Shown here piece after piece: positions 1,937 to 34,574 of a DNA stretch of 35,511 bases. The position numbers were made by a program, and so were the translations under genes. The notes under the pieces were generated by a model. The model had not been told where the DNA came from, did not search any database, and worked only from the letters and a program-made list of their open reading frames with translations. Source of the stretch: Thermomicrobiales bacterium (GTDB taxonomy: Bacteria > Chloroflexota > Chloroflexia > Thermomicrobiales > UBA6265). The stretch lies in assembly GCA_036280495.1 (NCBI GenBank), contig DASUQU010000074.1, positions 1 to 35,511 on the forward strand. Direction: 5' to 3'. How positions within the stretch are numbered: position 1 is the first letter of the stretch; every line of letters begins with the position of its first letter.

Positions 1937-3505
1937 ATGAAGAATGGTAAACTTCGCGGCCGTTTGCACGCTGTTCAGGAGCAACGGGCAGGGTTCGACT
2001 TGATCGATGCCATCGGAAACGACGTGGTAGGCGGCAACGGTTACGAGACAGTGATCGGACTCGAAGTCCACGCTCAGATGCTCACGCGATCCAAGATGTA
2101 CTGCGGCTGCTCGGCCCGGTACGCGGATGCCCCCCCGAACACTCTCGTCTGTATCGTCTGCGGAGGGTTCCCCGGCGCATTGCCGGTACTGAATGAGGCA
2201 GCTCTCGAGGCGGCGATCCTGACCGGACTCGCGCTCAATTGCACGATTCCGCCTTTCTGCAAACTCGACCGAAAGAACTACTTCTACCCGGACCTGCCCA
2301 AGGGCTACCAGATTTCGCAATTCGATCTCCCGCTAGCGATCGATGGATACCTCGAGTTCGTTTGCGGGGGTGAGACGCGGCGCGCGGGCATTACCCGAGT
2401 TCACGTCGAAGAGGACACGGGCCGGCTCGTCCACCGGACAAAGGAGGATGGCGCCGAGGTCAGCCTCGTTGACCTCAATCGGTCCGGGGTGCCGTTGATG
2501 GAGATCGTGGGGGAACCGCATCTCCGCTCGCCGGAGGAAGCACGAGACTATCTCACCGCGTTGCGCCAAATCCTGCGCTACATCGGTGTCTCAACCGGGA
2601 ACATGGAGGAGGGCGCCTTCCGCTGCGACGCCAATATCTCCGTGCGTGAGATCCATGGCCCGCTTGGCGCCAAGGTCGAAGTCAAGAACATGAACTCGTT
2701 TCGAGCCGTCGAGCGGGCACTGCGATTCGAGCAGAACCGCCAGCTCGACGTACTCCGCCGCGGTGGGCAGGTTGACCAAGAGACGCGGGGGTGGGTGGAA
2801 GACCGCGGCGTGACGGTTGCGCAGCGGACCAAGGAGCAAGCGCACGATTACCGCTATTTCCCGGAACCGGATCTACCGCCACTGACGATCTCGGAGGAGA
2901 TGGTAGCGGCGCTCGCGTCACGGTTGCCGGAGCTGCCCGCTCAGCGGAGAGCGCGCCTTGCCGAGGAGTACGGGATCGGCGAGAGCGAGGCAGCAATCTT
3001 GACGGCCGAGCGAGACGTCGCTGATTTCTACGAAACCGTGGCGAAGAGCGACGGTAGGGACCGAGCGCGACTCGCCGCTAACTGGATTGTCAACGACCTC
3101 GCCGGGTTACAGCGAACGCGCGGCCTGCCTCCTGACCGCCTGCCAGTGTCGGCACAACAGTTGCAAGATCTCCTCGAGGCGCTTGATGCTGGAGCATTAT
3201 CGGGGCGCGCAGCGAAAGAGCTGCTGCCACAGCTGGGCGAGGGAGAGGCCGTATTGGCTGCCGCCGCAAGGCTCGACCTGCTCGTGCTGAGCGAGGAAGG
3301 GGTCATTCGTGACGCCGCGCTCGAGACCATGGAGGCGTTTCCGGCGGCAGTGCGAGACTTCCGGGGAGGCAAGCGAGCAGCTATCGGGAGGCTGATCGGC
3401 GAAACAATTCGGCGAACTGGGGGCCGGGCAAGTCCAGAGCAGGTTCGCCGGGTTCTGGAAGAGGAACTGAGCAGGCCAGTCGTGGCTGAGGGTGGGGACA
3501 TCTGA
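1937..3505 (+). CDS. gatB: Aspartyl/glutamyl-tRNA(Asn/Gln) amidotransferase subunit B
   Basis: ORF 1853..3505 contains [71 protein letters not shown] and FRCDANISV. The start is uncertain: ATG 1853, ATG 1937 or GTG 2024 are all in frame, and none has a strong SD. The homologous core begins at about 2040. Confidence 0.95.
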
Positions 3506-8898: not shown

Positions 8899-9972
8899 GT
8901 GAGCAGTTGGGAACGATTCGGTGATTGGATCGCGACACTAGCTGTCGCCTCGTTCACGTGGGTCTCGGGTTTGGTCGTAGCCGGCGCGCCTGCCGGTGCT
9001 CCGGCGGCCACAGTCGATGTGCCGGCCGAGAATCAACCCACCTTGGTGATGTTGTGGGCGCAGGCGGAGGATGAGCCGCCCATCGAGCAGGTGGGCGAGG
9101 AGACAGACGGAGACGTCGAAACGCTCGACGACGCGACGCCCCCCTCGGACGAGGTCGATACGACCGAGGATGTCGAGCTCCTTGACCAGGGTCCTCTCGT
9201 CGACGACGAACAGGACGTCGAGCTCCTTGACCGGGGCTCCCAGCCGGTAACCGCTCCGGAGTCCTCGTCAGTGCCCATAGTTTCAACTGTCCCTGCGACC
9301 ACGGATGTCGCTCCGGTCGACTCCACCGTTCCGTTCGTACCAGAAGGATTCGGAACCGGCGACGTCCACGTCGCCACCGGGACCGCCGGATTCCCGGTCG
9401 GCCTCGAGGATTGCCATGTGGGTGCGGTCACCGGCCGCGCCTATGTCGGGATCGATTGTGGCGAGGGAAGCGGGAGTTCGTTCGTCGGGCACTCCCCGTC
9501 ATTCGAAGAGTTCCCGTTTGTTCTCGAGGAGAACTTCCCGTTCGATCGAGAAAGCGTCTTTGCCGATCGCGGCGAGAGTCAGTCCGAGGATAGCGTTGTG
9601 ACGTTGGTTTCTGCCGCGGGCGATACGGCCCGCAATGGCAACTCAGTTGCCCCGGAAATCCGCACATCGGGCATATCGTCGGTGGAATTCGAGCAGCGAG
9701 CGCGGGATCGCAAGCCTCGGGTCGAGACGGACAACGGTAGTTCGAAGGGGGGTAAACAGAAGCGCCGGAGCCGAAATGCCGAAGTTACGGCATCTGAGAC
9801 TCAGGATGCGGCGGGGACGGTAGCCGCGGAATCCAAGCAACAGAAGAAGGACAAGGGCAAGGACCGAATCCGGCGAGGGGCAGGCGCGGCCGGCGCTGAT
9901 GAGTCAACGAGTTCGCACGGTACCAAGAAAGACGGCGGGAAGAAGGGTAAGAAGAAACGGACCTCCAATTGA
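8899..9972 (+). CDS. Hypothetical membrane-anchored protein: one N-terminal TM, acidic low-complexity region, lysine-rich basic tail
   Basis: 357-codon ORF with GTG start and AGGTGGGGGAG upstream. The TM segment is WIATLAVASFTWVSGLVVAGA. The D/E-rich segment contains a duplicated DVELLD unit. The C-terminus reads KQQKKDKGKDRIRR...TKKDGGKKGKKKRTSN. No recognisable domain. Confidence 0.6.
   Translation: MSSWERFGDWIATLAVASFTWVSGLVVAGAPAGAPAATVDVPAENQPTLVMLWAQAEDEPPIEQVGEETDGDVETLDDATPPSDEVDTTEDVELLDQGPLVDDEQDVELLDRGSQPVTAPESSSVPIVSTVPATTDVAPVDSTVPFVPEGFGTGDVHVATGTAGFPVGLEDCHVGAVTGRAYVGIDCGEGSGSSFVGHSPSFEEFPFVLEENFPFDRESVFADRGESQSEDSVVTLVSAAGDTARNGNSVAPEIRTSGISSVEFEQRARDRKPRVETDNGSSKGGKQKRRSRNAEVTASETQDAAGTVAAESKQQKKDKGKDRIRRGAGAAGADESTSSHGTKKDGGKKGKKKRTSN
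9172..9232 (+). repeat. Intragenic direct repeat (16-nt perfect copies GTCGAGCTCCTTGACC at 9172-9187 and 9217-9232, 45 nt apart)
   Basis: Read directly from the sequence. The 45-nt period equals 15 codons and encodes EDVELLDQGP / QDVELLDRGS in the 8899..9972 ORF. Confidence 0.9.
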
Positions 9973-11331: not shown

Positions 11332-11607
11332 ATGAGTCTGTCGCGGGGGCGGGGCCAGATAAGGACGGAACGGGGACGAGTAGTGGTGGTTGCCCGGTGC
11401 CCGCTGTGTGGCGAAGAGCACCGGTATGACAAAGGAGAGGCCGGCGGGGAAGAGATCGAAACCCTGCGTAAGGTCGGCTACACCGATGAGTGGCTCCCGT
11501 GTCAGATGGACTTGCCTGGGAACTTCTGGCGAATTGTAATCACCGGCAGCCGACAGGGAGCGAAACATGAATCACCGCGCCGCCACCGGAGGGCCAAAGG
11601 AAAGTGA
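11332..11607 (+). CDS. Small hypothetical CxxC protein with basic tail, translationally coupled to the TrmH-like gene
   Basis: ATG 11332 is preceded by GAGGGTGG. The sequence reads ..VVVVARCPLCGEEHRYDKGEAGGEEIETLRKVGYTDEWLPCQMDLPGNFWRIVITG..RRHRRAKGK. Its TGA (11605-11607) overlaps the GTG (11604) of the next gene (GTGA). Confidence 0.45.
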   Translation: MSLSRGRGQIRTERGRVVVVARCPLCGEEHRYDKGEAGGEEIETLRKVGYTDEWLPCQMDLPGNFWRIVITGSRQGAKHESPRRHRRAKGK

Positions 11608-12260
11608 ATGCACCCGAGGCCGCTGACCGGCAAGCGCTATCCAGGACGCAGCCGCTCAAATCTCGACGGTGGCCGCGGACCGAGCGACGTCAAGCGCGCA
11701 TCCGGTCCGTGCTGGCGCGACGTCAGCCAGATCTGACGGTTGTCCTGGAAAACGTGCACGACCCGCATAACGTCAGTGCCATTCTCCGCTCCTGCGACGG
11801 GGTTGGCGTGCTGCGGGCACACGCCGTATACACGATGGAAGAGCCACCAGCAGGGGCGTTTGCAAGGCAGACCTCGGCCAGCGCGGCAAAGTGGGTGGAA
11901 GTCGAGCGCCACGATTCACTTGCCGAATGTTTCACGCGATTGAGAGCGGAAGGTTTCTCCATTCTGGTCACAAGCATCGGACCCGATTCTCGCCCCCTCT
12001 ATGACTGGGATCTCAGGCAGCCAGTTGCGCTGGTCCTCGGCAACGAGATGCGGGGGGTCTCCACTGAGGCTCGGGACACTGCCGATGGGGCACTGCAGAT
12101 CCCCATGGCTGGGATGGTAGAGAGCTTGAATGTCTCCGTCGCCTGCGCTGTCTGTCTCTATGAAGCATTTCGCCAGCGAGCCGCCGCCGGTGACTACGAC
12201 TATTCGAAGATCGATTCACATCGATTGCGGACCCTGGAAGAAGACTGGCTTCGCCGCTAG
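11604..12260 (+). CDS. trmH: SpoU/TrmH-family RNA 2'-O-ribose methyltransferase
   Basis: SPOUT motifs are present: VVLENVHDPHNVSAILRSCDGVGV, ALVLGNEMRGVS and IPMAGMVESLNVSVACAVCLYE. Confidence 0.88.
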   Translation: MNAPEAADRQALSRTQPLKSRRWPRTERRQARIRSVLARRQPDLTVVLENVHDPHNVSAILRSCDGVGVLRAHAVYTMEEPPAGAFARQTSASAAKWVEVERHDSLAECFTRLRAEGFSILVTSIGPDSRPLYDWDLRQPVALVLGNEMRGVSTEARDTADGALQIPMAGMVESLNVSVACAVCLYEAFRQRAAAGDYDYSKIDSHRLRTLEEDWLRR

Positions 12261-12283
12261 CCGCGAGTCGCGTACCGGCAGCA

Positions 12284-12754
12284 TTACTCGGAAGAATCGG
12301 TGCCGCCGCCTGACTTGCTGCCGAGAAAACGGAGCTCGAGCTGCCTGAGCGTGACCAGGGCAACGATGGTTGCGACCGTGGCAATGACAGCGACGACATA
12401 GAAACCCGCGCCAATCAGTAGCCCCAGCGCGGTCGCGACCCAGAGACCAGCGGCGGTCGTCAGTCCGATGACTTGTTTGCCAGTGGTGAGAATCACACCA
12501 GCGGCGATGAATCCGATGCCCTGGACGACCGTGGACGCAATGCGACCGGGATCCGAGACGCCTCCGGCTATGGCAACCTGCTCCGCAAGGAGGATGGCGC
12601 AGATCATGAAGAGGCACGCGCCTTCGACCACTAACATGTAGGTCCGCAAGCCCGCCGGCCGGTCGAGGCGCTCACGCTCGATCCCAAGCAGAGCGCCGAC
12701 GACCATGGCTAGCGCCAGGCGCTGAATGGCTTCGAGGTTGCTGAGAGACTCCAT
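12284..12754 (-). CDS. mgtC: MgtC/SapB family membrane protein
   Basis: Contains LALAMVVGALLGIERERLDRPAGLRTYMLV and QGIGFIAAGVIL, plus further TM segments. ATG 12754 (MESLSNLEAIQ) is preferred to the longer track start at 12781. Confidence 0.85.
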   Translation of the reverse strand: MESLSNLEAIQRLALAMVVGALLGIERERLDRPAGLRTYMLVVEGACLFMICAILLAEQVAIAGGVSDPGRIASTVVQGIGFIAAGVILTTGKQVIGLTTAAGLWVATALGLLIGAGFYVVAVIATVATIVALVTLRQLELRFLGSKSGGGTDSSE

Positions 12755-12808
12755 ATCACGCCAGCCCCATGCGGTAACCAAGCCAGGCGCGAATGCTCGG
12801 GGGCACGG

Positions 12809-13363
12809 CTAAAACTGAAGGACAATCGACTGATTTTCCCCGTCCCGGATGTACTTTGCGGTCGCTTGGTCTCCGGCCTTGAGGGTCTCAACCATCTGGT
12901 CGAGCGCGGTCATCGTCCGCACCCGTTTCCCGGCGAAGCTAGTGATGATGTCTCCAGGCTTGAGACCTCCCCGGGCAGCGACGGTCTTCGGTCGGACATT
13001 GCCGACATAGACGCCTTTTGTTCCGGCGGGGACCTTCTCCGCTTTCTCCGGATGCTTGGCCAGATACTCTTCGGCATCCGCGGCCAGAATCCCGAGCGGG
13101 GGCCGCTTCGGACCCGCGAACTTTTCCGCTAGCTTCGCGAATTTCCGCTGGTCGAATCCCAGAATGACGTCGCCATTGGCGACAGTGACTGGCACGCCTT
13201 GTTGACCGCTGATGCGAATCATCTCCATCGCCGCCTGGTAGTCCTTGGCGACGTCCTTTTCAACGAAGGGGACTTTGTTTCGGCTAAGGAACTCCTTAGC
13301 TCTATCGCACCATGGTCAGGTGTTGGTGGTGTAAACGGTGACCTGAGGAGCAGCGTCCGTCAT
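12809..13363 (-). CDS. Glutaredoxin-like (YruB/NrdH-type) + PDZ fusion protein with in-frame UGA at the first redox-Cys position (candidate selenoprotein, U-P-W-C)
   Basis: The track lists only 12809..13228. The same frame continues upstream with no other stop. It reads ATG 13363 (AAGAGGA RBS) MTDAAPQVTVYTTNT-TGA(13318..13316)-PWCDRAKEFLSRNKVPFVEKDVAKDYQAAMEMIRISGQQGVPVTVANGDVILGFD. A linker and PDZ follow (GVYVGNVRPKTVAARGGLKPGDIITSFAGKRV..). I verified this codon by codon. Confidence 0.7.
13283..13300 (-). promoter_or_regulatory. SECIS-like stem-loop downstream of the in-frame UGA
   Basis: The minus-strand RNA is GCUAAGG-AGUU-CCUUAGC, a perfect 7-bp stem with a 4-nt loop containing G and U. 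The stem starts 15 nt after the UGA, and the apical loop starts 25 nt from the U of the UGA. Confidence 0.5.
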
Positions 13364-13480
13364 CGATATCCTCTTTACTCCGGGGCGGCCGGTTCACGCT
13401 CGTCGATCCAATGCCGCTCCGGTCGAATCACTGGCTCCATGGTACCAGTAGCGGTCCAATCGTCCGTGCGACGCCGGTCC

Positions 13481-15073
13481 CTATTCCCATTCGATCGTTG
13501 CTGGTGGCTTCGAAGAGATGTCATAGACCACGCGGGTGATACCGTGCACCTCGTTCACGATGCGATTGCTGATGCGTGCCAGTACTTCATGAGGGAGTCG
13601 TGCCCAGTCGGCGGTCATCGCGTCTTCCGACGTGACCGCTCTGACTGCACATACGCGTCCGTATGTTCGGTAGTCTCCCATGACGCCAACTGTGCGAATG
13701 GGTAAGAGGACGGCGAAATATTGCCAGACCTCCATAGTGCCGCCCAAGAGGTCGACCTCTTCGCGCACCACCGCGTCAGCGCAACGCAGCAAATCGAGAT
13801 CTTCCTTCGTGACCTGGCCGATGATGCGAACGGCGAGGCCCGGACCCGGGAAAGGTTGGCGTTGGACGATTTCGGCAGGCAGACCGAGAGCGCGGCCGAC
13901 ATCGCGAACTTCGTCCTTGAAGAGATAGCGTAATGGCTCGACGAGGGAAAACGTGAGGTCGGTGGGTAGACCGCCGACGTTGTGATGGGTCTTGATCTTG
14001 ACCGCGGACTTGGTATCCGGCGCGGTGCTTTCGATGACATCCGGATAGAGCGTGCCCTGTGCCAGAAAATCGAATGGTCCGTGGAGAGCCGCCTGCGCCT
14101 CGAAGGTCCGGATGAACTCATCGCCGACGATCCTTCGTTTCTCCTCAGGGTCGACGACGCCCTCCAGACGGTTGAGAAATCGCTCGCTCGCGTCGACAAA
14201 GATGAGATTCATGCCGGAAGCGCGGGCGAAGACGTCGCGCACGAGGTCGGCTTCCCCGAGACGCAGCAGGCCGTTGTCGACGAAGACCGGGCTCAAGCGA
14301 TCGCCGATTGCGCGGTGAATGAGGGCAGCCGCGACGGATGAGTCCACGCCCCCACTGAGACCGAGCAGCACCCGACCGTCTCCAACCCTCTCCCGGATCT
14401 GCCGGATGGCACTGTCGATGAAGTGCTCGGCGGTCCAGTCTGTTCGACAATTGCAGACGTCGACGAGGAAATTGCGCAACAGATCTCGGCCAAGCGGGGT
14501 GTGCACCACCTCCGGATGGAATTGGATGCCAAAACGCCGGCCGTCAGTCATACCGGCAATCGGAGCATTGTTCGTGCGGGCTATCCCAACGTAGCCGGTC
14601 GGGAGCCGCGTGACGTGATCACCGTGGCTCATCCAGACATCGAGCGAAGGGGGCAGGTTTCGGAAGAGAGGGGACTGTTGGGTCACCTCAATCGTCGCCG
14701 GGCCGTATTCACGACGAGCGGCTGGCTCAACACCTCCGTCGAGCGCGCGAGCGATCAGCTGCATGCCGTAACAGATGCCGAGTACAGGGGCGTCCACGCG
14801 CAGGACCCAGGTCGGCAGCGAGGGGGCTCCCTCGTCATAGACACTTGCCGGTCCACCGGACAGAATGATGCCCTTCGGCTGCAAGCGCGCAATCTCCTCC
14901 CAGCTCGTATCCCACGGCAGGAGGATGCTGTAGACCCCCGCTTCACGAACGCGGCGGGCAATCAGTTGGCTGTACTGACTGCCGAAATCGAGCACTACGA
15001 TTGTGTCGAAGCGATGGTCGATGCTTCCCTCATCCCCGGTTCCGGTGATCGTAGGAAGTGCTGAAGCCTTCAT
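13481..15073 (-). CDS. guaA: GMP synthase (glutamine-hydrolysing)
   Basis: GATase region [19 protein letters not shown] and ICYGMQL. ATP-PPase P-loop [13 protein letters not shown]-terminus [15 protein letters not shown] 15073 has AGGAG 5 nt upstream. Confidence 0.97.
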
Positions 15074-15121
15074 CGACGCTCCTGACCGCTTTTCGCGGTT
15101 CTGAAACCAAACTCCGGCGGG

Positions 15122-15580
15122 TTAGATGTCCGGGCCTTGGTGACCGAGATAGAGATAGGTCTGATCGAACTCCCACTCCGGGATCGTCTCGATGTCGACT
15201 TCAACTCGCGGGCGAAGGGGGTCGATCTTCTTCGAGAGGTGGAGATCGACGACCGCGCGGTCGTCGAAGCCGATTGTCCGAGCAAGGGCGTCCAAGCAGA
15301 TTTTCAGGCCGCCGTCGAGGTCCCTTCGGTGCGGCGTCTCAAAAAAATACACGAGGTATATGCCGAGGAGCGAACTCGCTAACGCCTGCTCGGTCACCGG
15401 CGAGAGTTGGCCACTGGTTCGCTGCGCCGCGATCAACTTGGCGACATCACGGTTGAAGGTTTTTGCCGGCGCGCTGAGGACCCTCCGCCGGCCCACGCTC
15501 ACGTACTGGTTATTCACTCCAGGCGGTAGCGGCAGGAGGATCTGAAACCTAATTACCGGTCGGGCTGCAATGCGCTGCAT
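15122..15580 (-). CDS. rusA: RusA-family crossover-junction endodeoxyribonuclease (Holliday-junction resolvase)-like protein
   Basis: Contains ILLPLPPGVNNQYVSVGRRRVLSAPAKTF and the catalytic-region pattern RRDLDGGLKICLDALARTIGFDDRAVVDLHLSK. This matches the RusA D-x-D..K..DA...DD signature. The protein is 152 aa. Confidence 0.7.
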   Translation of the reverse strand: MQRIAARPVIRFQILLPLPPGVNNQYVSVGRRRVLSAPAKTFNRDVAKLIAAQRTSGQLSPVTEQALASSLLGIYLVYFFETPHRRDLDGGLKICLDALARTIGFDDRAVVDLHLSKKIDPLRPRVEVDIETIPEWEFDQTYLYLGHQGPDI

Positions 15581-15725
15581 GGAGCCTGATCTCTGTTGAG
15601 CGGGGCGCAGCCAGTCTACTGATGGCTGCGAGCTCGGGCAACCTCGCCGGTCCCCTCTCGAGCCAAGCGATTTGTGGCCGCTATGCTTGAATCATGCGAT
15701 CGTTAGACCTGCCCAGCCACCTTCA

Positions 15726-16637
15726 ATGATCGATGCCATGTTGCTGGGGACGGGCGGCATGATGCCGCTGCCTGGCCGCTGGCTCTCCAGTCTTCTCATC
15801 CGGGTCAATGGGCATCTGACTCTCTTCGATTGTGGCGAGGGGACGCAAATTGCCTGGCGAAAGTCGGGTTGGGGATTCCGGCGCCTCGCGGCAGTCTGCA
15901 TATCGCATGCCCATGCGGACCACATCGCGGGACTCCCAGGACTCCTGCATGCTGTCGCTAATTCAGGTCGAACGGAGCCAATCGACATATTCGGACCGGC
16001 GGGTACTGCCGAGGTCCTGCGGGCGCTCCGCGTGATCGCCCCGGTATTGCCCTATGAGGTTCGCGTGACGGAATTGCTCGGTGGCGAACGTATTTCGCTA
16101 CCTGGATCACTGATCGGTTCCTGCGAACCGGGAGATCACGCACTGCCTGTACTCGCCTATCGAGTTGATCTCAACCGTGGCAGGGCTTTCTTACCAGACC
16201 GGACACGCAAGCTCGGTGTTCCGATTGGCCTATGGAGCCAGCTGCAGGACGGCGACCCCGTGACTTGGGCGCGGGGTCATGCGATTGCTGAGGAGGTGCT
16301 CGGGCCCCCTCGTCCTGGGCTTGCCGTCGCATATGTCACGGATACTCGACCGGTACCGAGTTTGCCGCGGTTTCTGCAGAGAGTCGATCTTCTGGTCTGC
16401 GAAGGTACGTACGGCAGCGACGAAGACCTTCCCAAAGCCGTGCGCAACCGGCACATGACATTCCGCGAGGCGGCAGCGCTGGCCCGGGACGCGGACGCCA
16501 AACGCCTCTGGATCACGCACTTCAGCCCGGCATTAGAAGATCCAGACGCATTTGCGGCGAATGCCAAGAGTGTTTTTTCCCAGGCACAGATTGGGCTCGA
16601 TGGGTTGAAGATCAAGCTGGCGTTTCCGGACGAGTAA
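15726..16637 (+). CDS. rnz: Ribonuclease Z / metallo-beta-lactamase fold tRNA 3' endonuclease
   Basis: Contains MLLGTGGMMPLPGRWLSSLLIRVNG..LFDCGEGTQ, the HxHxDH motif ISHAHADHIAGLPGLL, and C-terminal LWITHFSPAL. The start is uncertain (TTG 15672, ATG 15726 or ATG 15738). Confidence 0.85.
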   Translation: MIDAMLLGTGGMMPLPGRWLSSLLIRVNGHLTLFDCGEGTQIAWRKSGWGFRRLAAVCISHAHADHIAGLPGLLHAVANSGRTEPIDIFGPAGTAEVLRALRVIAPVLPYEVRVTELLGGERISLPGSLIGSCEPGDHALPVLAYRVDLNRGRAFLPDRTRKLGVPIGLWSQLQDGDPVTWARGHAIAEEVLGPPRPGLAVAYVTDTRPVPSLPRFLQRVDLLVCEGTYGSDEDLPKAVRNRHMTFREAAALARDADAKRLWITHFSPALEDPDAFAANAKSVFSQAQIGLDGLKIKLAFPDE

Positions 16638-16641
16638 GCCG

Positions 16642-17526
16642 TTACTCGATGTTCTGGCGTTCGCGACCTGCAAGAACTTGAGTGCGCTGGTAGGCGGCAT
16701 AGACAGCCCGCGACAAGACTGTGCGCAGACCGCCTTTCTCCATCTGGTAGATCGCCTCCGCCGAGGTACCACCCGGCGAGGTCACCATATTGCGTAGCTC
16801 CGCCATGTGCTTGCCGGAGTCCCGCGCAAAGGCCACCGAACCTGAAACGGTCTGCAAGACGATTTGCTCGGCGATCCGGCGCGGGAATCCCATGTGCACG
16901 CCGGCGTCGATCAACGCCTCCATCATGAGAAAGACGTACGTCGGACCCGTTCCCGAGAGGGCCGTGGCCATGTCGACATATTTTTCCTCATCGACCCACA
17001 GTTCCTCACCGAGCGCGCCGAGCACAGCCTGCACCCGCGATCGTTGCTTGTCGGTGACGCCAGGTGTGGTACTCCAGACGCTCATCGCCTGACCGACCTG
17101 GGCCGGGGTGTTCGGCATGACCCGTGCAATCGCCTGATGTCCGAGACCATGGAGCAAGACATCGATCGGCGCCCCGGCGATTACCGAGACGACCACCTGC
17201 TCGGGTGAGAGCGACCCGGATAGCTGTCGCATTACTGCTTGCAGGACTTGTGGCTTGATCGTGAGGACGACCAGGTCCGCGCCTTGAGCGGCCCCGATAT
17301 TGCTTTCTGTGGTGAGGATGCCGAATCGCTCTTCGAGCCTCTGGCGCCGATCTTCGCGGGGATGACTTGCGATTACGTGGTCCGGAGGAATCAGATCCTT
17401 CTTGAGGAGCCCGACGATCATCGATTCGGCCATCACGCCGGCGCCGACAAAGGCGATGCGCACGTCACCGAGGGGATTCGCGTAGCTGAGCGCGCCGTCC
17501 TGTCCTGTCTCGGCAATATCGGCCAC
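16642..17526 (-). CDS. proC: Pyrroline-5-carboxylate reductase
   Basis: Contains VRIAFVGAGVMAESMIVGLL (NADP-binding), PNTPAQVGQAMS and VTSPGGTSAEAI. GTG 17526 has a perfect GGAGG with a 6-nt spacer. The track start at 17601 adds 25 non-conserved residues. Confidence 0.9.
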   Translation of the reverse strand: MADIAETGQDGALSYANPLGDVRIAFVGAGVMAESMIVGLLKKDLIPPDHVIASHPREDRRQRLEERFGILTTESNIGAAQGADLVVLTIKPQVLQAVMRQLSGSLSPEQVVVSVIAGAPIDVLLHGLGHQAIARVMPNTPAQVGQAMSVWSTTPGVTDKQRSRVQAVLGALGEELWVDEEKYVDMATALSGTGPTYVFLMMEALIDAGVHMGFPRRIAEQIVLQTVSGSVAFARDSGKHMAELRNMVTSPGGTSAEAIYQMEKGGLRTVLSRAVYAAYQRTQVLAGRERQNIE

Positions 17527-17630
17527 GTGATTCCTCCATTGGTCGCCCTGTGCCACCATTGTACCGAGTGCTCGCAGCGGGTTCGCGCTGTCGCCGGCCA
17601 TGAAATTTACGCAGAAGAAAGCGAGTTACT

Positions 17631-19703
17631 GTGCCCAATCGCCTGGCTGCCGAAACCAGTCCGTACCTGCTCCAGCATGCGGAGAATCCCGTCGACTGGT
17701 ACCCGTGGGGAGACGAGGCCCTGACCAAAGCTCGCTTAGAGGACAAGCCAATCTTGGTCAGCGTCGGCTACTCCGCCTGCCACTGGTGCCATGTCATGGA
17801 GCACGAGTCGTTCGAGAACGAAGAGATCGCGGCGACGATGAACGACCTCTTCGTCAACATCAAGGTCGACCGGGAGGAGCGCCCGGACCTCGACTCGCTC
17901 TACATGTCCGCTGTGCAATCGATGACAGGGCACGGCGGCTGGCCGCTCAACGTGTTCCTGACACCGGATGGCACTCCCTTTTACGGCGGAACCTATTTCC
18001 CTCCTGAGGACCGCATGGGGATGCCTGGATTTCCAAAGGTCCTGGAAGCGGTCGCCAGTGCATTCAAGGAGCGACGGGAGGAGGTCGAGGAGAACGCGCA
18101 GCAGATCCGTAGCCTTCTACAGCGAGCGACGAAAGAGCTGCCAAAGCCCGATGACCTCACCCCGGAGCTCCTCGCGGAGGCATCCGAGCAGCTCGCCCAC
18201 TCATTCGATGCCCGCAACGGTGGATTCGGGGGAGCACCCAAGTTTCCGCAGCCAGCCGCGATCGAATTCTTGCTGCGGCACGATAAGCGCGGCGGCCAGC
18301 GAGAAGCGATCATGGTGCAGCGGACGCTCGACCGCATGGCCAGCGGCGGTATCTATGACCAGATCGGCGGCGGCTTTCACCGCTACGCTGTCGACGCGAT
18401 CTGGCTCGTACCGCACTTCGAGAAGATGCTCTATGACAACGCGCAACTCGCCTCCGTCTACCTTGCGGGGTTTCAAGCGTACGGTGACGAGCGTTACCGG
18501 CAGGTCGCCGAGGAGACACTCGACTTCGTTGCGCGCGAGCTAACCGATCCAGATGGTGGATTCTATGCCACGCTGGACGCCGATACCGCGGGACACGAAG
18601 GCCTCTTTTACACCTGGACGACCGAAGAATTGGACGAGGCGCTCGGCGAGGAAGACACCGCGATCGCCAAGCGATGGTTCAACGTCGAACCCGCCGGCAA
18701 TTTCGAAGGGCGTACGGTACTGGCCACACCGCGCACGGCCGCCGATATAGCCGACCGGCTCGGGGTCAGCGAAGCGGCGCTGATGGAATCGCTCGTTCGC
18801 GTCAAGCAGCGTTTGCTGGAAGTACGGGAGCAGAGAGAACGCCCGGGTCGGGATGAGAAAGTCATAACGGCCTGGAACGGGCTCATGTTGAGAGCGTTCG
18901 CCGACGGTTCGCGAATTCTCCATCGGGACGATTTTCGCGGTGTGGCAGAAAGGAATGCCGAATTCGTTCTCGAGCACTTGCAACGAGACGGCCGCCTCCT
19001 TCGCAGTTGGAAGAACAGCGACGCTCGCATTGGTGGCTTCCTCGAGGACTACGCCTTCTTCATTGACGGTCTGCTCGCACTCTATCGGGCGACGCTTGAC
19101 GTCCGCTGGCTGGATGAGGCGATGCGGCTCGCGGAGGTGATGGTGGCGGAGTTTGCCGATCCGGCTGGAGTAGGCTTCTTCGACACAAGCGCGAGCCACG
19201 AGACCCCCGTCGCGCGTCCGCGGGATCTCCACGACGGCGCAACGCCCTCCGGCAATTCAGTGGCGGCGGAGGTGCTATTACGGCTGGGAGCCCTGACCGC
19301 CAATGAGGACTATTCTGCTCGTGCCAGCGAGTTGCTGCGGACGATGGCGAGCACGATGCGCGAGCACCCACTCGCCGCTGGTCGTTATCTCAGTGCAGTC
19401 GACTTCTATCTGGGACCGGTGAAGGAAGTCGCGCTGGCAGGAGACCGCGATAGCCCGGACCTGCAAGCATTGCTGAATGCACTGTACGACGAATTTGAAC
19501 CGAATGTCATCGTGGGCTATGTCGATCAGGATCGAGGCGACCTAACAGACCGGTTGCCGTTCCTTCAAGATCGACCACCTCGCGACGGACGCGCCACGGC
19601 CTACGTCTGTGAGCACTTTGCCTGCCTGCCGCCAGTGCACGATCCCGAAGGGCTGCTCCGGCAACTGAACGAGGGAACCGGGATCAGCTGGAGAGATTTC
19701 TGA
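17631..19703 (+). CDS. Thioredoxin-domain protein of the DUF255/YyaL family (thioredoxin-like N-domain + six-hairpin alpha/alpha domain)
   Basis: Contains [86 protein letters not shown] and [25 protein letters not shown] start at 17631. Confidence 0.9.
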
Positions 19704-29171: not shown

Positions 29172-30401
29172 GTGACCGGTATGAACGACTGGCGTAAGGA
29201 CAACTTTCCCAGACCGCAGGCACGTCTGCCGCTCGACGCGGAGGAGTGGTGGCGCGAGGACCTCAGCTCCAGGGCGTCGGGTCTGGATCGCAACGCTCAG
29301 CCCAACCGTGCGGGAGCCGGAACCAAGGGAAAGAAGAGCGCCGGATCAACCTCAAGGCGCTCCGGATCCAGGACCGGTAGTTCGCGTCCAGTCCCGCGCA
29401 TGCCGAAGTCCCGTCCTGAAACACAGGTCCGATCGAAAGGAATTACCCTCGCCGGCACGCTGTTGATCGTGGGGCTGACCGTCCTTGCTTTCGCGGGTGG
29501 CAGGCTCTTCGGTCGTGTCGAGGAGCCTGCCACTGGCACCCAGGTAGAAACGGCAGCGCAGACCATGCCTGAGCCCGAGTTGGCTCCGGAAGCTCCCGTG
29601 CTGGAGCCAGTGGAGGAGACGCCGGTGGCGCTCCCTGCCACGTTCGCCCGGGCGCCCATCGTTTGCGTCGACCCTGGGCATGGTGGAGAAGACCGCGGTT
29701 TCTCTCGATTCTTTGAGAATGACATTCCGGCGATGGAAGAGGCAATACTCGTGCTCGAGCAGGCATGGGATCTCGAGGCGCGGCTGCAACAACGTGGTTA
29801 CAAGGTCGTCATGACCAGGGAGACAGACACAGCGGTTAATGTTGACGGGAGGGACGTGAACGGCGACGGTCGGACCGCGGCCCATGACCCGCCACGGTCG
29901 AACCGCAACAAGAATCTGGATGAACTCCAGGCTCGGATCAACGTCTGTAATGCTGCGAACGCTGATCTTCTCGTCTCAATGCATGTCAACGGCTATTCGA
30001 CTGGTGGGCCGCACGGGTTCGAAACCTGGTTCACCCGTGAGCGCCAGTTCGGCGACAAAAATGCCGTCTTTGCCACCCTGGCGTATGCGCATCTAAAGGA
30101 GCAGTTGGCAAAAATCGGCTACGTCCTGCCGGCCGAGGAAGAGCGAGGCGTGCTGCCCGACACAACAGCGGATGTGCAAATGGAGCACTCGCTCTTCCGG
30201 CATTTCGTCATGACCGGGCCCGAAGTACCGGGCGTCGTCAAGGCGAGCAAAATGCCCGGCGCAATTGTCGAGGCGCTCTTCGTCTCAAACGATGGAGATG
30301 CCGCGGTACTGTCGATTCCTGAAGGACGGAATGCGATCGTTACCGCATACGAGAACGCGATCGTCGAATATTTTGAACGCTACCCACCGGAGGCCCGTTG
30401 A
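29172..30401 (+). CDS. N-acetylmuramoyl-L-alanine amidase (Amidase_3) paralogue with long basic N-terminal region and TM anchor
   Basis: Contains IVCVDPGHGGEDRGF, ADLLVSMHVNG and AIVEALFVSNDGDAAVL. The TM segment is ITLAGTLLIVGLTVLAFAGG. It has the same domain order and the same insertion as the upstream paralogue. Confidence 0.9.
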   Translation: MTGMNDWRKDNFPRPQARLPLDAEEWWREDLSSRASGLDRNAQPNRAGAGTKGKKSAGSTSRRSGSRTGSSRPVPRMPKSRPETQVRSKGITLAGTLLIVGLTVLAFAGGRLFGRVEEPATGTQVETAAQTMPEPELAPEAPVLEPVEETPVALPATFARAPIVCVDPGHGGEDRGFSRFFENDIPAMEEAILVLEQAWDLEARLQQRGYKVVMTRETDTAVNVDGRDVNGDGRTAAHDPPRSNRNKNLDELQARINVCNAANADLLVSMHVNGYSTGGPHGFETWFTRERQFGDKNAVFATLAYAHLKEQLAKIGYVLPAEEERGVLPDTTADVQMEHSLFRHFVMTGPEVPGVVKASKMPGAIVEALFVSNDGDAAVLSIPEGRNAIVTAYENAIVEYFERYPPEAR

Positions 30402-32484: not shown

Positions 32485-33975
32485 ATGACGGCAGAAGCCA
32501 TGCGGCCGATCGGCGCCGCGATCGACATCGGGTCGAACTCGATCAAGATGACGATTGCGCGTGCAAGCGACGACGGCGGGATCGAGCAGCTCGATTGGGC
32601 ATCGGAAGTCGTTCGCCTCGGAGAGGGGCTAGATCGCACCGGGCTCCTCGATGAGCAGCGCGTCGAGACTGCCATCGAGACGCTTGGGCGATTTGTTGCA
32701 CAGGCGCGGGAGCACGGCGCCACGCGCATCGTTGGTGTGGCGACCGAGGCCACGCGAGCCGCGGCAAACGGCGCGACGTTTCTCGATCGCGTGCGAGCAG
32801 AGGCCGGCATAGACGTTCGCGTCATCGATGGTCAAGAGGAAGCCGCTCTGACATTCAGGGGGCTGCAGGCAGGCACCGATCTGACCGGTTCGGTCGTGGT
32901 TGCTGACATCGGCGGCGGAAGTACGGAACTGATTTCAGCGCGCGACGGCGTAATGCAGATGGTCAAATCGCTCCCATTGGGCTCAGGCCGGCTGACAGAC
33001 CGATTGGTGGTTGCGGACCCGCCGCGACCAGATGAAATCGACGCCTGCGAACGAGAGGCAGGCGCAGTCATTCAAACGTTGCCACCGCTTGGACTACCCT
33101 CCGGCGAGACAGACCGGCTGATCGTGGTGGGCGGAACGGGCGAATATATGGCCCGACTCCTCGCCGACGTCCGGTGCATCGACCTCAAGGCCGTCCGCAT
33201 CGTGCTTGCGAAGTTGGCCACACTATCAGCCGCTGAGCTCGCGGACGAGATCGACATTCCAGAGGCGCGGGCCCGAGTGCTTCCGGCGGGGGTTGCGGTG
33301 GTGGCCGCGATCGCATCCAGCCTGCACCCGAATCGGATCGAAATTTCGCGCAGCGGGGTCCGAACCGGTCTGCTTCTCGAGGCACTTTATGACAGCGCCG
33401 CCGTAAAAGTGGACGAGCCAGCGGCGATAGCCGAGTCGGCCGAGGTCCCGACTTACGACGACCGCCGCCAACCGAATGCGGAGTCGAACACGGTCGACGA
33501 GAGTTTCAGGGAAACGATGCGGGCGCTCATCGCCGAGCGTTGGCGTGTCGTCTGGAAGGCGATCCCGGTCGCCCTCGAAGGTACGGATATCGAGGGGGTA
33601 CACGACGTTCGTGTCGCGTCGCGCCGACTAAGGGCAGCAATGGATGTTGCTCAACCTGCATTTCCCGGGAAGTGGTACAAGCCGCTGCATCGGACCGCGA
33701 AGGAGATCACCAGCGCGCTGGGTGAGGTTCGTGATCGGGATGTGTTGCTGGAAGCGCTGCGGGGCGACCGCAGCGTCGCAACCGTAGTTGAGCACCCTGG
33801 GATCGACCGGCTCATTGACCGCGTCGAAGGGGAGCGAGCCCTGGCCCGCGCGGAGATGGAGCGCTTTCTCCGCCAGCTACTGGACGGTCCGTTGCGGTCT
33901 GAACTGGAGCGCCGATTCTGGATGACCGGGGCGCCGGCGAGCGAGCCAACCGCACCCGAGGGCGGCACCCAGTGA
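32485..33975 (+). CDS. Ppx/GppA-family phosphatase fused to an N-terminal CHAD half
   Basis: ASKHA motifs AAIDIGSNSIKMTIA, VGVATEATRAAANG and VADIGGGSTEL. The C-terminal 150 aa has the CHAD signature GVHDVRVASRRLRAAMDV .. LGEVRDRDVL. Confidence 0.88.
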   Translation: MTAEAMRPIGAAIDIGSNSIKMTIARASDDGGIEQLDWASEVVRLGEGLDRTGLLDEQRVETAIETLGRFVAQAREHGATRIVGVATEATRAAANGATFLDRVRAEAGIDVRVIDGQEEAALTFRGLQAGTDLTGSVVVADIGGGSTELISARDGVMQMVKSLPLGSGRLTDRLVVADPPRPDEIDACEREAGAVIQTLPPLGLPSGETDRLIVVGGTGEYMARLLADVRCIDLKAVRIVLAKLATLSAAELADEIDIPEARARVLPAGVAVVAAIASSLHPNRIEISRSGVRTGLLLEALYDSAAVKVDEPAAIAESAEVPTYDDRRQPNAESNTVDESFRETMRALIAERWRVVWKAIPVALEGTDIEGVHDVRVASRRLRAAMDVAQPAFPGKWYKPLHRTAKEITSALGEVRDRDVLLEALRGDRSVATVVEHPGIDRLIDRVEGERALARAEMERFLRQLLDGPLRSELERRFWMTGAPASEPTAPEGGTQ

Positions 33976-34574
33976 GCCGAGCATGGCCGGTTCATGATGT
34001 CGACCCGGACGCATCCGTCATCGATAACGCGCGGCGTGTCCTGGCCGTCCGGGTCGCCGAGTTCTATTCCTTCGAGCCCATCGTCCCGTACCCCGAACTC
34101 TCCGCGGCGCTCCATGACTTACGGATCTCTGCCAAGCGACTTCGCTACACGCTGGAGTTGTTTCGCCCGCAATTCGGGAAGGCGGGCGAGCGGCAGATCG
34201 AGAGGGTCAAAGCGATCCAGGAGGAACTCGGTACTCTGCACGACCATGACGTGCGTATCGACCTGATCGGCGACGAGCTCTCGCAGCTCATGGTCGAGCA
34301 AAGCCGGATGACCCAGTCGGAAATCGCAGATGCCTCGTCGGAAGAGCTTGCCGCGATCGCGACCGCCGCACTGCGAGCGCCGCCTGACGATCCCCGGCGC
34401 GGACTGATCGCCCTCTTGGGACGCGAACACACTGGCCGACGAGCGGCATACACCCGGTTCCGCGAGTTGTGGGACATGTATGCGCGCGATGGCATGCGCC
34501 GGGATTTGGTTGCCTTGTCGGTTACACCGCTGCCGAAGCAGCTTGAAAACTCCGATGCGGATTCACTGATATGA
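33972..34574 (+). CDS. CHAD-domain protein (second-half-like), overlapping the upstream stop (GTGA)
   Basis: Contains ALHDLRISAKRLRYTLELFRPQFG .. IQEELGTLHDHDV. GTG 33972 overlaps TGA 33973-33975. Confidence 0.75.
   Translation: MSRAWPVHDVDPDASVIDNARRVLAVRVAEFYSFEPIVPYPELSAALHDLRISAKRLRYTLELFRPQFGKAGERQIERVKAIQEELGTLHDHDVRIDLIGDELSQLMVEQSRMTQSEIADASSEELAAIATAALRAPPDDPRRGLIALLGREHTGRRAAYTRFRELWDMYARDGMRRDLVALSVTPLPKQLENSDADSLI

What the first reader, a model, noticed from the sequence alone, without database searches (positions are those of the whole stretch)
12809..13363. In-frame UGA exactly at the nucleophilic Cys of a glutaredoxin CxxC motif: candidate selenoprotein that the ORF track truncates
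The track reports only 12809..13228. That ORF starts MEMIRISGQQGVP, which is the middle of a glutaredoxin fold with no redox motif. Reading the same frame upstream gives no other stop. It reads ATG(13363) MTDAAPQVTVYTTNT-TGA(13318..13316)-PWCDRAKEFLSRNKVPFVEKDVAKDYQAA-MEMIRISGQQGVPVTVANGDVILGFD. This is the canonical YruB/NrdH-type glutaredoxin N-terminus: a beta-strand VxVYT followed by C-P-[WY]-C at the start of helix 1. The TGA sits precisely where the first Cys belongs, giving U-P-W-C. The ATG has a good RBS (AAGAGGA). Neighbouring genes use TGA as an ordinary stop (3503-3505, 11605-11607, 30399-30401, 33973-33975, 34572-34574). The event would therefore be site-specific recoding, not a reassigned genetic code. 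UxxC thiol-disulfide oxidoreductases are the most common class of bacterial selenoproteins.
Basis: partly seen in the sequence, partly recalled or inferred. Interest (0 to 1): 0.85.

Follow-up and report, generated by a model that had tools for sequence, protein, structure and literature searches.

The report
Selenocysteine glutaredoxin fused to PDZ
The in-frame UGA is almost certainly read as selenocysteine at the active site of a 184-residue glutaredoxin-PDZ protein that gene callers cut down to its PDZ half; it is a well-supported new member of a known class of bacterial selenoproteins, not a new kind of recoding.

Summary
On the minus strand, one ORF runs from ATG 13363 to TAG 12809 and is interrupted only by TGA 13318..13316. 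Read through, it gives a complete glutaredoxin domain (U-P-W-C at the N-cap of helix 1) fused to an HtrA-type PDZ domain.

- **Homologues.** Across 40 species-level Chloroflexota loci in the same guaA / grx-PDZ / mgtC position, this codon is TGA in 21 and TGC/TGT in 19. Four independent metagenome assemblies of the same strain group also read TGA.
- **Hairpin.** Every TGA form has a 7-8 bp hairpin starting 15 nt after the UGA. It meets all four published bacterial SECIS constraints.
- **RNA-level selection.** The hairpin shows compensatory changes at 3 stem pairs. Synonymous sites within it are frozen in the Sec forms only, and nearly all Cys forms lack the hairpin.
- **Genetic code.** TGA is an ordinary stop in 9 of 21 window genes.

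Not shown: selA/selB/selC/selD in this genome. They are absent from the held DNA, but cultured Thermomicrobia have them according to the literature. Public databases annotate the Sec forms as truncated "PDZ domain-containing protein" or "serine protease". UxxC glutaredoxin selenoproteins are already known. The PDZ fusion and its Chloroflexota distribution appear undescribed. Interest is moderate.

The parts
12809..13363 (-). Full coding sequence of the Grx-PDZ selenoprotein (184 aa plus stop), read through the UGA
   Evidence: single internal stop; Glutaredoxin + PDZ; 184-aa Cys orthologues collinear over the whole length
13369..13375 (-). Shine-Dalgarno-like AAGAGGA, 5 nt before the ATG
   Evidence: The start and the purine-rich upstream element are kept in relatives
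13361..13363 (-). True start codon ATG (M1)
   Evidence: The N-terminus M-[TA]-[DE]-x-A-P-Q-V-T-V-Y is conserved in Sec and Cys forms, and sequence further upstream is not conserved
13316..13318 (-). In-frame UGA = Sec16, the nucleophilic position of the U-P-W-C redox motif
   Evidence: TGA in 21 of 40 loci and TGC/TGT in 19 at this column. TGA in 4 independent assemblies. Sits at the N-cap of helix 1 in the model
13307..13309 (-). TGC = Cys19, the resolving cysteine of UxxC
   Evidence: Invariant in the alignments
13283..13300 (-). bSECIS-type hairpin GCUAAGG-AGUU-CCUUAGC (7 bp, tetraloop). It starts 15 nt after the UGA and encodes A-K-E-F-L-S
   Evidence: -10.0 kcal/mol; published criteria; spacing 22 nt, covariation; present in Sec forms, absent in Cys forms, frozen synonymous sites; CM scores
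13118..13345 (-). Glutaredoxin-fold domain (residues about 7-82: b1-a1-b2-a2-b3-b4-a3)
   Evidence: PF00462, 1-60/60; secondary structure of the model; PDB 7c10 glutaredoxin, E 5e-14
13088..13108 (-). K-R-P-P-L-G-I (residues 86-92). It aligns with the K-R-G-E-L-G-I start of DegP PDZ1 (carboxylate-binding loop region) and is nearly invariant in the family
   Evidence: alignment to DegP 248-344; invariant P85 R87 P88 L90 G91
12812..13111 (-). HtrA-type PDZ domain (residues about 85-184)
   Evidence: PDZ_2 55.6 bits; (TM 0.75-0.80, rmsd 2.1-2.6 A to isolated HtrA PDZ domains)
13226..13228 (-). Internal ATG (M46), which ORF finders use as a false start. It lies inside helix 2 of the Grx fold
   Evidence: ORF 12809..13228; H42-52; called this way on 4 public contigs
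12809..12811 (-). True stop codon TAG

Best explanation
The gene at 12809..13363 (minus strand) encodes a cytoplasmic 184-residue selenoprotein. It has an N-terminal glutaredoxin-fold domain with the redox motif Sec16-Pro-Trp-Cys19, joined to a C-terminal HtrA-type PDZ domain.

Decoding (inferred from the anatomy). When the ribosome reaches UGA 13318..13316, the hairpin 15 nt downstream (13300..13283, apical loop A-G-U-U) recruits SelB.GTP.Sec-tRNA(Sec). Selenocysteine is then inserted instead of termination, and translation continues to TAG 12809.

Catalysis (inferred from the family). The selenolate of Sec16 attacks a substrate disulfide or mixed disulfide. Cys19 resolves the selenenylsulfide. 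The oxidised Se-S form is then re-reduced, probably by a thioredoxin-reductase-type or low-molecular-weight-thiol system.

Targeting (inferred). The PDZ domain, whose carboxylate-binding-loop region is nearly invariant, most likely tethers the enzyme to exposed C-terminal tails of client proteins.

What is shown: the recoding signal and its conservation, and the domain identities. What is inferred: Sec as the inserted residue, the reductant, and the PDZ clients.
For: - **Sec/Cys pair.** Full-length Cys homologues align over the TGA. TGA is present at this codon in the window plus 21 of 40 species-level loci, down to about 40% protein identity, across Thermomicrobiales, Chloroflexia and Anaerolineae.
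- **Positional orthology.** guaA -> grx-PDZ -> mgtC -> SpoU is conserved whether the codon is TGA or TGY.
- **Translation upstream of the UGA.** Codons -8..-1 keep V-T-V-Y-T-T-x-T while their third positions vary. Four independent assemblies read TGA.
- **Hairpin criteria.** All four published bSECIS constraints are met: 4-nt loop, 7-bp stem, G at loop position 2 followed by U, 22 nt from UGA to loop, and -10.0 kcal/mol.
- **Hairpin specificity.**
  - A hairpin is present at that offset in 22 of 22 Sec forms: an uninterrupted 7-8 bp stem in 21, and one with a 1-nt bulge (L036).
  - Cys forms have 2-5 bp there, except L031. Mann-Whitney p = 1e-7 for stem length and 4e-6 for free energy.
  - Third-codon entropy is 0 at K-E-F-L-S in 15 Sec forms, against 0.5-1.7 bits in Cys forms and 1-1.8 bits in the flanks.
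- **Covariation.** Compensatory changes occur at stem pairs 2 (C-G/U-A), 3 (U-A/G-C, bought with a Ser->Arg change) and 6 (G-C/G-U/A-U).
- **No code reassignment.** TGA ends 9 of 21 window genes.
- **Fold.** The model shows b1(8-12)-a1(17-28) with residue 16 at the helix N-cap. The PDZ half matches HtrA PDZ domains at TM 0.75-0.80.
- **Sec trait in relatives.** Sphaerobacter, Thermomicrobium and Nitrolancea are SelD+/SelA+/SelB+ with 9, 5 and 8 selenoproteins (PMC5029168 Tables S1/S2).
- **Precedent.** UxxC glutaredoxin is an experimentally established selenoprotein class (PMC13188914).
Against: - No tRNA-Sec, selA, selB or selD is in the window or in about 1 Mb of related loci. The rest of the genome could not be searched, so the decoding capacity of this organism is inferred from relatives.
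- The hairpin of the window taken alone is only modestly better than shuffles (z -1.8 to -2.2), and bSECIS models are permissive in GC-rich DNA. The case rests on comparison across loci.
- Covariation comes from only 6 distinct stem-loops, so from few independent events.
- The hairpin lies in coding sequence, so part of its conservation could be at the protein level.
- One Cys form (L031) keeps the hairpin.
- There are no expression, proteomic or 75Se data.
Confidence: 0.88

Rival explanations
1. The TGA is a sequencing or assembly error, or a recent nonsense mutation. The gene would then be an ordinary CxxC glutaredoxin-PDZ or a pseudogene.
For: Cys forms of the same orthologue are common (19 of 40 loci). 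Some related long-read MAG loci carry apparent frameshifts (L030, L040).
Against: - TGA sits at the identical codon in 21 other species-level genomes and in 4 independent assemblies of near-identical strains.
- Both flanks are under purifying selection.
- A dedicated hairpin co-occurs only with TGA.
Confidence: 0.01
2. UGA terminates translation. The locus makes a 15-residue peptide and, separately, a PDZ-only protein that starts at an internal Met or Val, as the databases annotate it.
For: Gene callers produce 137-154-aa PDZ-only products. M46 and M48 are conserved residues.
Against: - The called starts are inconsistent (residues 31, 34, 38, 46, 48) and lie inside helix 2 or strand 2 of a fold that needs b1-a1.
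- Codons 1-45 are conserved at the protein level with synonymous variation, in Sec and Cys forms alike.
- M46 and M48 are equally conserved in Cys forms, where they are internal.
- No SD-like element precedes M46.
Confidence: 0.04
3. UGA is recoded, but not to selenocysteine. Possibilities are SelB/SECIS-dependent delivery of Cys, near-cognate read-through (Trp or Cys), or a lineage-wide reassignment of UGA.
For: The inserted residue cannot be read from DNA. The Sec biosynthesis genes were not seen for this genome.
Against: - TGA is a normal stop in 9 of 21 window genes, and no other gene has an internal TGA, so there is no reassignment.
- The site is exactly the nucleophilic Cys of a UxxC oxidoreductase and is followed by a bSECIS-type hairpin, which is the signature of Sec insertion.
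- Cultured relatives have SelA, SelB and SelD.
Confidence: 0.05

Closest known systems
Sec-containing glutaredoxin (Pfam PF00462, UxxC), e.g. Clostridium oremlandii Grx1 and Geobacter sulfurreducens Grx. It is listed as an experimentally verified prokaryotic selenoprotein family (PMC13188914; PMC1794560)
   Same: Same fold and the same U-x-x-C motif at the N-terminus of helix 1. Sec replaces the nucleophilic Cys, the SECIS hairpin sits in the coding region just downstream, and Cys-containing homologues are common.
   Different: Those are stand-alone proteins of roughly 80-100 aa, reported from anaerobic Firmicutes and Deltaproteobacteria. This one carries a C-terminal HtrA-type PDZ domain and comes from Chloroflexota (Thermomicrobiales-like). 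Glutathione dependence is unlikely to be shared and was not tested.
NCBIfam NF041212 'Uxx-star family glutaredoxin-like (seleno)protein' and TIGR02196 'glutaredoxin-like protein, YruB family'
   Same: These are the best-scoring curated families for the N-terminal domain (63.3 and 81.4 bits). NCBI has named one Cys orthologue of this very gene (MFT4037555.1) with the Uxx-star name.
   Different: - Both scores are below the curated cut-offs (66 and 88.55).
- The match stops at profile position 66 of 70, and the protein continues into a linker and a PDZ domain instead of ending.
- By my reading of the names (GUXX-star, profile geometry), those families carry their Sec three residues before the stop codon. 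Here Sec is in the N-terminal redox motif.
Trx7/PDZ domain-containing (seleno)protein, NCBIfam NF041199 (predicted from GOS metagenomes; CxxU; PMC13188914, PMC9312934)
   Same: Same design idea: a thioredoxin-superfamily redox domain with Sec in the dithiol motif, fused to a PDZ domain.
   Different: The redox domain is different (Thioredoxin_7, about 390 aa) and Sec is in the second position (CxxU). Only the PDZ part matches, at 33.8 bits against a cut-off of 300. It is an analogue, not a relative.
PDZ1 of HtrA/DegP/DegQ serine proteases
   Same: The C-terminal 100 residues align from the KR-x-x-LGI strand onward and superpose on isolated HtrA PDZ domains (TM 0.75-0.80).
   Different: There is no protease domain and no signal peptide. 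The IMG name 'S1-C subfamily serine protease' for the truncated products is a mis-annotation.
Bacterial SECIS consensus (bSECISearch model; E. coli fdhF type)
   Same: Position just 3' of the UGA, a small apical loop with G followed by U, stem length, spacing and stability are all within the published ranges.
   Different: It is a short perfect 7-8 bp stem without the bulged U or the lower stem of fdhF. The same hairpin solution, encoding K-E-F-L, recurs in a stand-alone Zixibacteria Grx.

Membership tests
Bacterial selenoprotein gene (SelB/SECIS-dependent UGA recoding) | In-frame TGA aligns with Cys in homologues (Sec/Cys pair), with conserved flanks on both sides | tested here: met
   T-[U/C]-P-W-C column, 19 Cys loci and 21 TGA loci. 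Flanks are conserved.
Bacterial selenoprotein gene (SelB/SECIS-dependent UGA recoding) | TGA-containing homologues occur in other organisms, so it is not a one-off error | tested here: met
   21 species-level genomes; 4 independent assemblies; about 95 truncated clusters among the top 120 hits.
Bacterial selenoprotein gene (SelB/SECIS-dependent UGA recoding) | bSECIS as published: 3-9 nt loop, 4-16 bp upper stem, G in the first two loop positions, 16-37 nt from UGA to loop, MFE <= -7.5 kcal/mol (PMC13188914) | tested here: met
   (criteria); loop AGUU, 7 bp, spacing 22 nt, -10.0 kcal/mol. Covariation at 3 pairs. Sec-specific.
Bacterial selenoprotein gene (SelB/SECIS-dependent UGA recoding) | selA, selB, selC (tRNA-Sec) and selD are present in the same genome | not testable with these tools
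   None is in the window or in about 1 Mb of related loci. Cultured Thermomicrobia are SelD+/SelA+/SelB+.
Bacterial selenoprotein gene (SelB/SECIS-dependent UGA recoding) | Selenium is demonstrably incorporated (75Se labelling or MS) | not testable with these tools
   This needs an experiment.
Glutaredoxin (Pfam PF00462) | Score above the gathering threshold over the full-length profile | tested here: met
   61.4 bits against 22.9, profile 1-60/60, residues 8-67 (U replaced by C).
Glutaredoxin (Pfam PF00462) | Thioredoxin-type fold b1-a1-b2-a2-b3-b4-a3 with the dithiol motif at the N-terminus of a1, plus a cis-Pro loop | tested here: met
   (model of the 80%-identical Cys orthologue P0002: E8-12, H17-28...). 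G56-V57-P58 and G69-F70-D71 are invariant.
Glutaredoxin (Pfam PF00462) | Glutathione-dependent disulfide reductase activity | not testable with these tools
   This is a biochemical property. The reductant is unknown.
YruB-family glutaredoxin-like protein (TIGR02196) | Score at or above the curated cut-off | tested here: not met
   81.4 against 88.55 bits.
NrdH (TIGR02194) | Score at or above the curated cut-off | tested here: not met
   41.3 against 85.75 bits.
Uxx-star family glutaredoxin-like (seleno)protein (NF041212) | Score at or above the curated cut-off | tested here: not met
   63.3 against 66 bits (U replaced by C). A Cys orthologue was nevertheless given this name by NCBI, so the group straddles the cut-off.
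Uxx-star family glutaredoxin-like (seleno)protein (NF041212) | C-terminal U-X-X-stop motif at the end of an about 70-aa domain. This is my reading of the family name; the defining paper, Haft & Tolstoy 2025, is not held | tested here: inconclusive
   The match ends at profile position 66 of 70, and the protein continues for 110 more residues with no Cys or Sec there. The definition itself could not be verified.
Trx7/PDZ domain-containing (seleno)protein (NF041199) | Score at or above the curated cut-off | tested here: not met
   33.8 against 300 bits, PDZ part only.
HtrA/DegP serine protease | Trypsin-like protease domain N-terminal to the PDZ | tested here: not met
   only the PDZ1 region matches (DegP 248-344). 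The N-terminal half is a glutaredoxin.
PDZ domain (Pfam PF13180 PDZ_2) | Score above the gathering threshold, and a PDZ fold | tested here: met
   55.6 against 27; TM 0.75-0.80, rmsd 2.1-2.6 A to HtrA PDZ domains.

The most novel reading that the evidence does not exclude
The Grx-PDZ protein is a distinct selenoprotein architecture that has not yet been catalogued: a PDZ-guided selenol:disulfide reductase that docks on C-terminal tails of client proteins. It is fixed at the guaA-mgtC locus of soil Thermomicrobiales and related Chloroflexota. Public databases mis-annotate it systematically as a truncated 'PDZ protein' or 'serine protease'. It has switched between Sec and Cys at least 6 times among positional orthologues. 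That makes it a natural experiment on when Sec pays off in aerobic soil bacteria.
Probability: 0.45. Interest if true: 0.5.

Novelty: new member of a known kind. Interest (0 to 1): 0.4.

Why it matters
- **Annotation.** At least about 95 protein clusters among the closest 120 database relatives are truncated to a PDZ fragment, and some are named as serine proteases. The real gene product is a redox enzyme.
- **Selenoproteome.** It adds a Grx-PDZ fusion to the selenoproteome of Chloroflexota, a phylum common in soils. The only prior PDZ-linked selenoprotein in the literature I could read is the unrelated Trx7/PDZ family.
- **Evolution.** Sec and Cys versions sit in the same genomic slot in sister species. 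The SECIS hairpin appears and disappears with the TGA, and it dictates the amino-acid sequence K-E-F-L-S/R. This is a clean illustration of RNA structure constraining protein sequence, and a tractable system for comparing Sec and Cys catalysis.

None of this changes what is known about how Sec is decoded.

Tried and rejected
- **RNA genes and Sec machinery.**
  - The tRNA/tmRNA scan and the Rfam gathering scan of the window found nothing.
  - The tRNA scan of 40 related loci found no tRNA-Sec.
  - tblastn with authentic E. coli SelA, SelB and SelD against all held DNA gave no hit.
- **Blind TGA/Cys-pair scan.**
  - A six-frame scan of the window plus 40 loci was swamped by off-frame conservation in this GC-rich DNA.
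  - After a composition filter, only this gene recurred, plus one extra candidate in L040.
  - No second selenoprotein gene was found in the window.
- **Covariation counting.** I did not use the count of structure pairs. The Infernal realignment kept the coding register, while the Anaerolineae/Chloroflexia variants close the stem one nucleotide further 3'. I tabulated the pairs per sequence in their own register instead.
- **Structure prediction.** I modelled the 80%-identical Cys orthologue P0002 instead. The model gives no reliable inter-domain geometry (pTM 0.55), so it says nothing about how the PDZ groove faces the active site.
- **Literature.** The paper that defines the UXX-star families (Haft & Tolstoy 2025) is not held.
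- **Transcription signals.** The promoter/terminator scan was uninformative.
- **Rejected readings.** I rejected a sequencing error, a pseudogene, an independent PDZ-only gene and a reassigned genetic code. The reasons are under the rival explanations.
Full report
**Observation.** On the minus strand an ATG at 13363..13361 follows AAGAGGA (13375..13369) after a 5-nt spacer. The frame then runs to TAG 12811..12809 with one internal stop, TGA 13318..13316. The mechanical ORF list shows only 12809..13228, 139 aa, starting MEMIRISGQQGVP. With U written as C, the 184-residue product matches Pfam Glutaredoxin over the entire profile (1-60/60, 61.4 bits against 22.9). It also matches PDZ_2 at residues 110-180, 55.6 bits. 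Among 21 window genes with domain support, TGA ends 9, TAG 6 and TAA 6, and only this gene has an internal TGA. The description is accurate.

**Homologues.** A search of about 5.8 billion proteins returned two kinds of relative.
- Full-length proteins of 181-192 aa (62-81% identical) carry Grx + PDZ and read T-C-P-W-C-D-R-A-K across the TGA column.
- A larger set of closer relatives (84-99% identical) is only 137-154 aa long, has PDZ domains only, and starts at residues 31, 34, 38, 46 or 48.

One NCBI Cys form is named 'Uxx-star family glutaredoxin-like (seleno)protein'. Truncated forms are named 'PDZ domain-containing protein' (MDQ3228079.1) or 'S1-C subfamily serine protease'.

**The DNA behind those proteins.** A scan of one genome per species gave 40 Grx-PDZ loci from Thermomicrobiales, Chloroflexia and Anaerolineae MAGs.
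- The redox codon is TGA in 21 loci and TGC/TGT in 19.
- TGA forms reach down to about 40% identity with the window protein.
- In Thermomicrobiales the gene sits in the same slot (guaA -> grx-PDZ -> mgtC on one strand, then SpoU) whether it has TGA or TGY. Sec and Cys forms are therefore positional orthologues.
- A neighbour-joining tree needs about 7 Sec/Cys switches. One of them rests on L030, whose match carries an extra nucleotide and sits on a long branch, so I count at least 6.
- The identical 139-aa product lies on four independent assemblies (ENA, two SRA runs, JGI). Each was called as PDZ-only, and each reads TGA at codon 16 with nearby synonymous differences. A base-call error is excluded.

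**The recoding signal.** Fifteen nucleotides after the UGA lies GCUAAGG-AGUU-CCUUAGC (13300..13283), -10.0 kcal/mol.
- The published bacterial SECIS model requires a 3-9 nt apical loop, a 4-16 bp upper stem, G in the first two loop positions (usually G[G|U]), 16-37 nt between UGA and loop, and MFE <= -7.5 (PMC13188914). The window has a 4-nt loop with G-U at positions 2-3, 7 bp, 22 nt spacing and -10.0, so all constraints are met.
- All 22 Sec forms have a hairpin at that offset. Twenty-one have an uninterrupted 7-8 bp stem, and L036 has a one-nucleotide bulge.
- Six distinct stem-loops show compensatory changes at pair 2 (C-G/U-A), pair 3 (U-A/G-C) and pair 6 (G-C/G-U/A-U).
- The pair-3 change is paid for with a Ser-to-Arg replacement, so the protein follows the RNA.
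- Cys forms have only 2-5 bp there, except L031. Stem length differs at p = 1e-7 and free energy at p = 4e-6.
- In 15 Thermomicrobiales-type Sec forms, third-codon entropy is zero at K-E-F-L-S (+7..+11). It is 1-1.8 bits in flanking codons and 0.5-1.7 bits at the same codons of Cys forms, which read K-A-Y-L-R/Q instead.
- A covariance model built from the Sec forms scores them at 42-72 bits and Cys forms at 36 bits or less. This separation is partly by construction.
- The window's hairpin alone is only z = -1.8 to -2.2 against shuffles. The argument is comparative.

**Upstream of the UGA.** Codons -8..-1 encode V-T-V-Y-T-T-x-T (strand beta1) in both forms, with variation concentrated at third positions. 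Sequence upstream of M1 is not conserved as protein. Translation therefore starts at 13363 and passes through the UGA.

**Protein anatomy.**
- An AlphaFold2 model of the 80%-identical Cys orthologue has mean pLDDT 85.7 and pTM 0.55. It shows b1 8-12, a1 17-28, b2 33-37, a2 42-52, b3 59-62, b4 65-68 and a3 72-82, followed by a PDZ domain at 92-183.
- Residue 16 caps helix 1, the classical nucleophile position.
- A start at M46 would delete b1-a1-b2.
- Residues 81-182 align with DegP PDZ1, beginning at K-R-x-x-L-G-I. That segment is nearly invariant in the family.
- Foldseek finds isolated HtrA PDZ domains at TM 0.75-0.80. No solved structure combines Grx and PDZ.
- There is no signal peptide or protease domain.

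**Sec machinery.** The window has no tRNA, no Rfam hit and no sel gene. About 1 Mb of related loci has none either. I could not search the rest of the genome. Peng et al. 2016 list Sphaerobacter thermophilus, Thermomicrobium roseum and Nitrolancetus hollandicus as SelD+/SelA+/SelB+ with 9, 5 and 8 selenoproteins, and Anaerolinea thermophila likewise with 4. One Chloroflexia locus (L040) has a second candidate selenoprotein gene next door. The decoding capacity of this particular organism remains an inference.

**Mechanism.**
- Shown: a conserved UGA/Cys pair at the nucleophilic position, a Sec-specific covarying hairpin that meets the bSECIS model, and continued coding downstream.
- Inferred from the established bacterial pathway: SelB.GTP.Sec-tRNA(Sec) binds the apical loop and delivers Sec at the UGA.
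- Inferred from thioredoxin-fold chemistry: Sec16 attacks a disulfide, Cys19 resolves the Se-S bond, and an external reductase recycles the enzyme.
- Inferred from the HtrA-type PDZ: the domain binds C-terminal tails and so selects the clients.

**Comparison with known families.**
- UxxC glutaredoxins are experimentally verified selenoproteins (Clostridium oremlandii, Geobacter). They are rare: 5 organisms in a survey of more than 5200 genomes.
- By curated thresholds the N-terminal domain is not a YruB (81.4 < 88.55), NrdH (41.3 < 85.75) or Uxx-star (63.3 < 66) member. A Cys orthologue does receive the Uxx-star name.
- The Trx7/PDZ selenoprotein is an analogue with a different redox domain and a CxxU motif.
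- A full-text search for selenoprotein + PDZ + glutaredoxin found no description of a Grx-PDZ selenoprotein.
- I therefore file it as a new member of a known kind, a Sec-glutaredoxin, with a domain fusion and a host range that appear undescribed.

**Verdict.** It is a solid selenoprotein prediction and a correction of widespread mis-annotation. A specialist would not find it very surprising. Interest 0.4.

Noticed in passing
L040 9431-9433 (+), gene roughly 9000-9656; CAVVMX010000002.1, Chloroflexia MAG: About 600 nt upstream of that locus's Grx-PDZ gene there is a second in-frame TGA in a two-unit thioredoxin-fold protein (...VHIQVFVTPT-U-PYCTQAVRLAHMF...; first unit ...CQFCAETRQIVEEIA). A 6-bp hairpin CCAGGC-CGUGC-GCCUGG starts 12 nt after the UGA, and three other loci have TGC at the aligned column. 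It looks like an 'AhpF N-terminal domain / glutaredoxin-like domain' selenoprotein. The first unit seems to carry a 1-nt frameshift.
   Followed up: partly
L053 2776-2835 (+); JBIOYE010000059.1, Zixibacteria MAG: A stand-alone (no PDZ) Grx-like gene reads ...YSQPG-U-MFCQKVKEFLSQ.... It has the same hairpin at the same offset (UGA + 15 nt + GUGAAAGA-GUU-UCUUUCAC, -11.8 kcal/mol for 60 nt). The Sec-Grx module with its K-E-F-L-encoding SECIS is therefore older or more widely spread than the PDZ fusion.
   Followed up: partly
window 32485-33975 and 33972-34574 (+): A Ppx/GppA + CHAD protein appears split. CHAD profile positions 2-132 are in the first ORF and 172-226 in the next ORF, in another frame, with the ORFs overlapping at a TGA. 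This is either a frameshift (assembly error or pseudogene) or two genes.
   Followed up: no
window 13292-13297 (-): The 5' arm and loop of the SECIS hairpin contain AAGGAG, a perfect Shine-Dalgarno-like hexamer, inside the coding region. No start codon follows at a usable distance, so it is probably just a consequence of the K-E codons. An anti-SD interaction or pausing effect near the UGA was not examined.
   Followed up: no
window 11604-19703; L001-L030: The gene order is strongly conserved across Thermomicrobiales MAGs: TauE, MatE, a DUF255/Thioredox_DsbH thioredoxin-domain protein (17631-19703), proC, an MBL hydrolase, RusA, guaA, grx-PDZ, mgtC, SpoU. Another thiol-redox protein (DUF255) sits 4.3 kb from the selenoprotein gene in all of them.
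   Followed up: partly
L030 10001-10553; L040 10001-10514: The Grx-PDZ genes of these two long-read MAGs (MFD isolates) show single-nucleotide indel-like frameshifts. L030's match is 553 nt and sits on a long branch in the tree. L040 goes out of frame after about residue 40. These are probably assembly errors rather than pseudogenes.
   Followed up: no
L031 3507-3554 (+); Anaerolineae MAG: This is a Cys form (TGC) that still keeps the full hairpin (GUGAAAGAAUUCCUUUCAC, loop without the G-U). It may be a recent Sec-to-Cys conversion, with the SECIS decaying from the loop first.
   Followed up: no
window 13199-13705 (+): A 168-aa ORF lies antisense to the 5' part of the selenoprotein gene and the guaA 3' end. 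It has no domain support and has the R/S/P-rich composition typical of off-frame ORFs in GC-rich DNA, so it is probably spurious.
   Followed up: no
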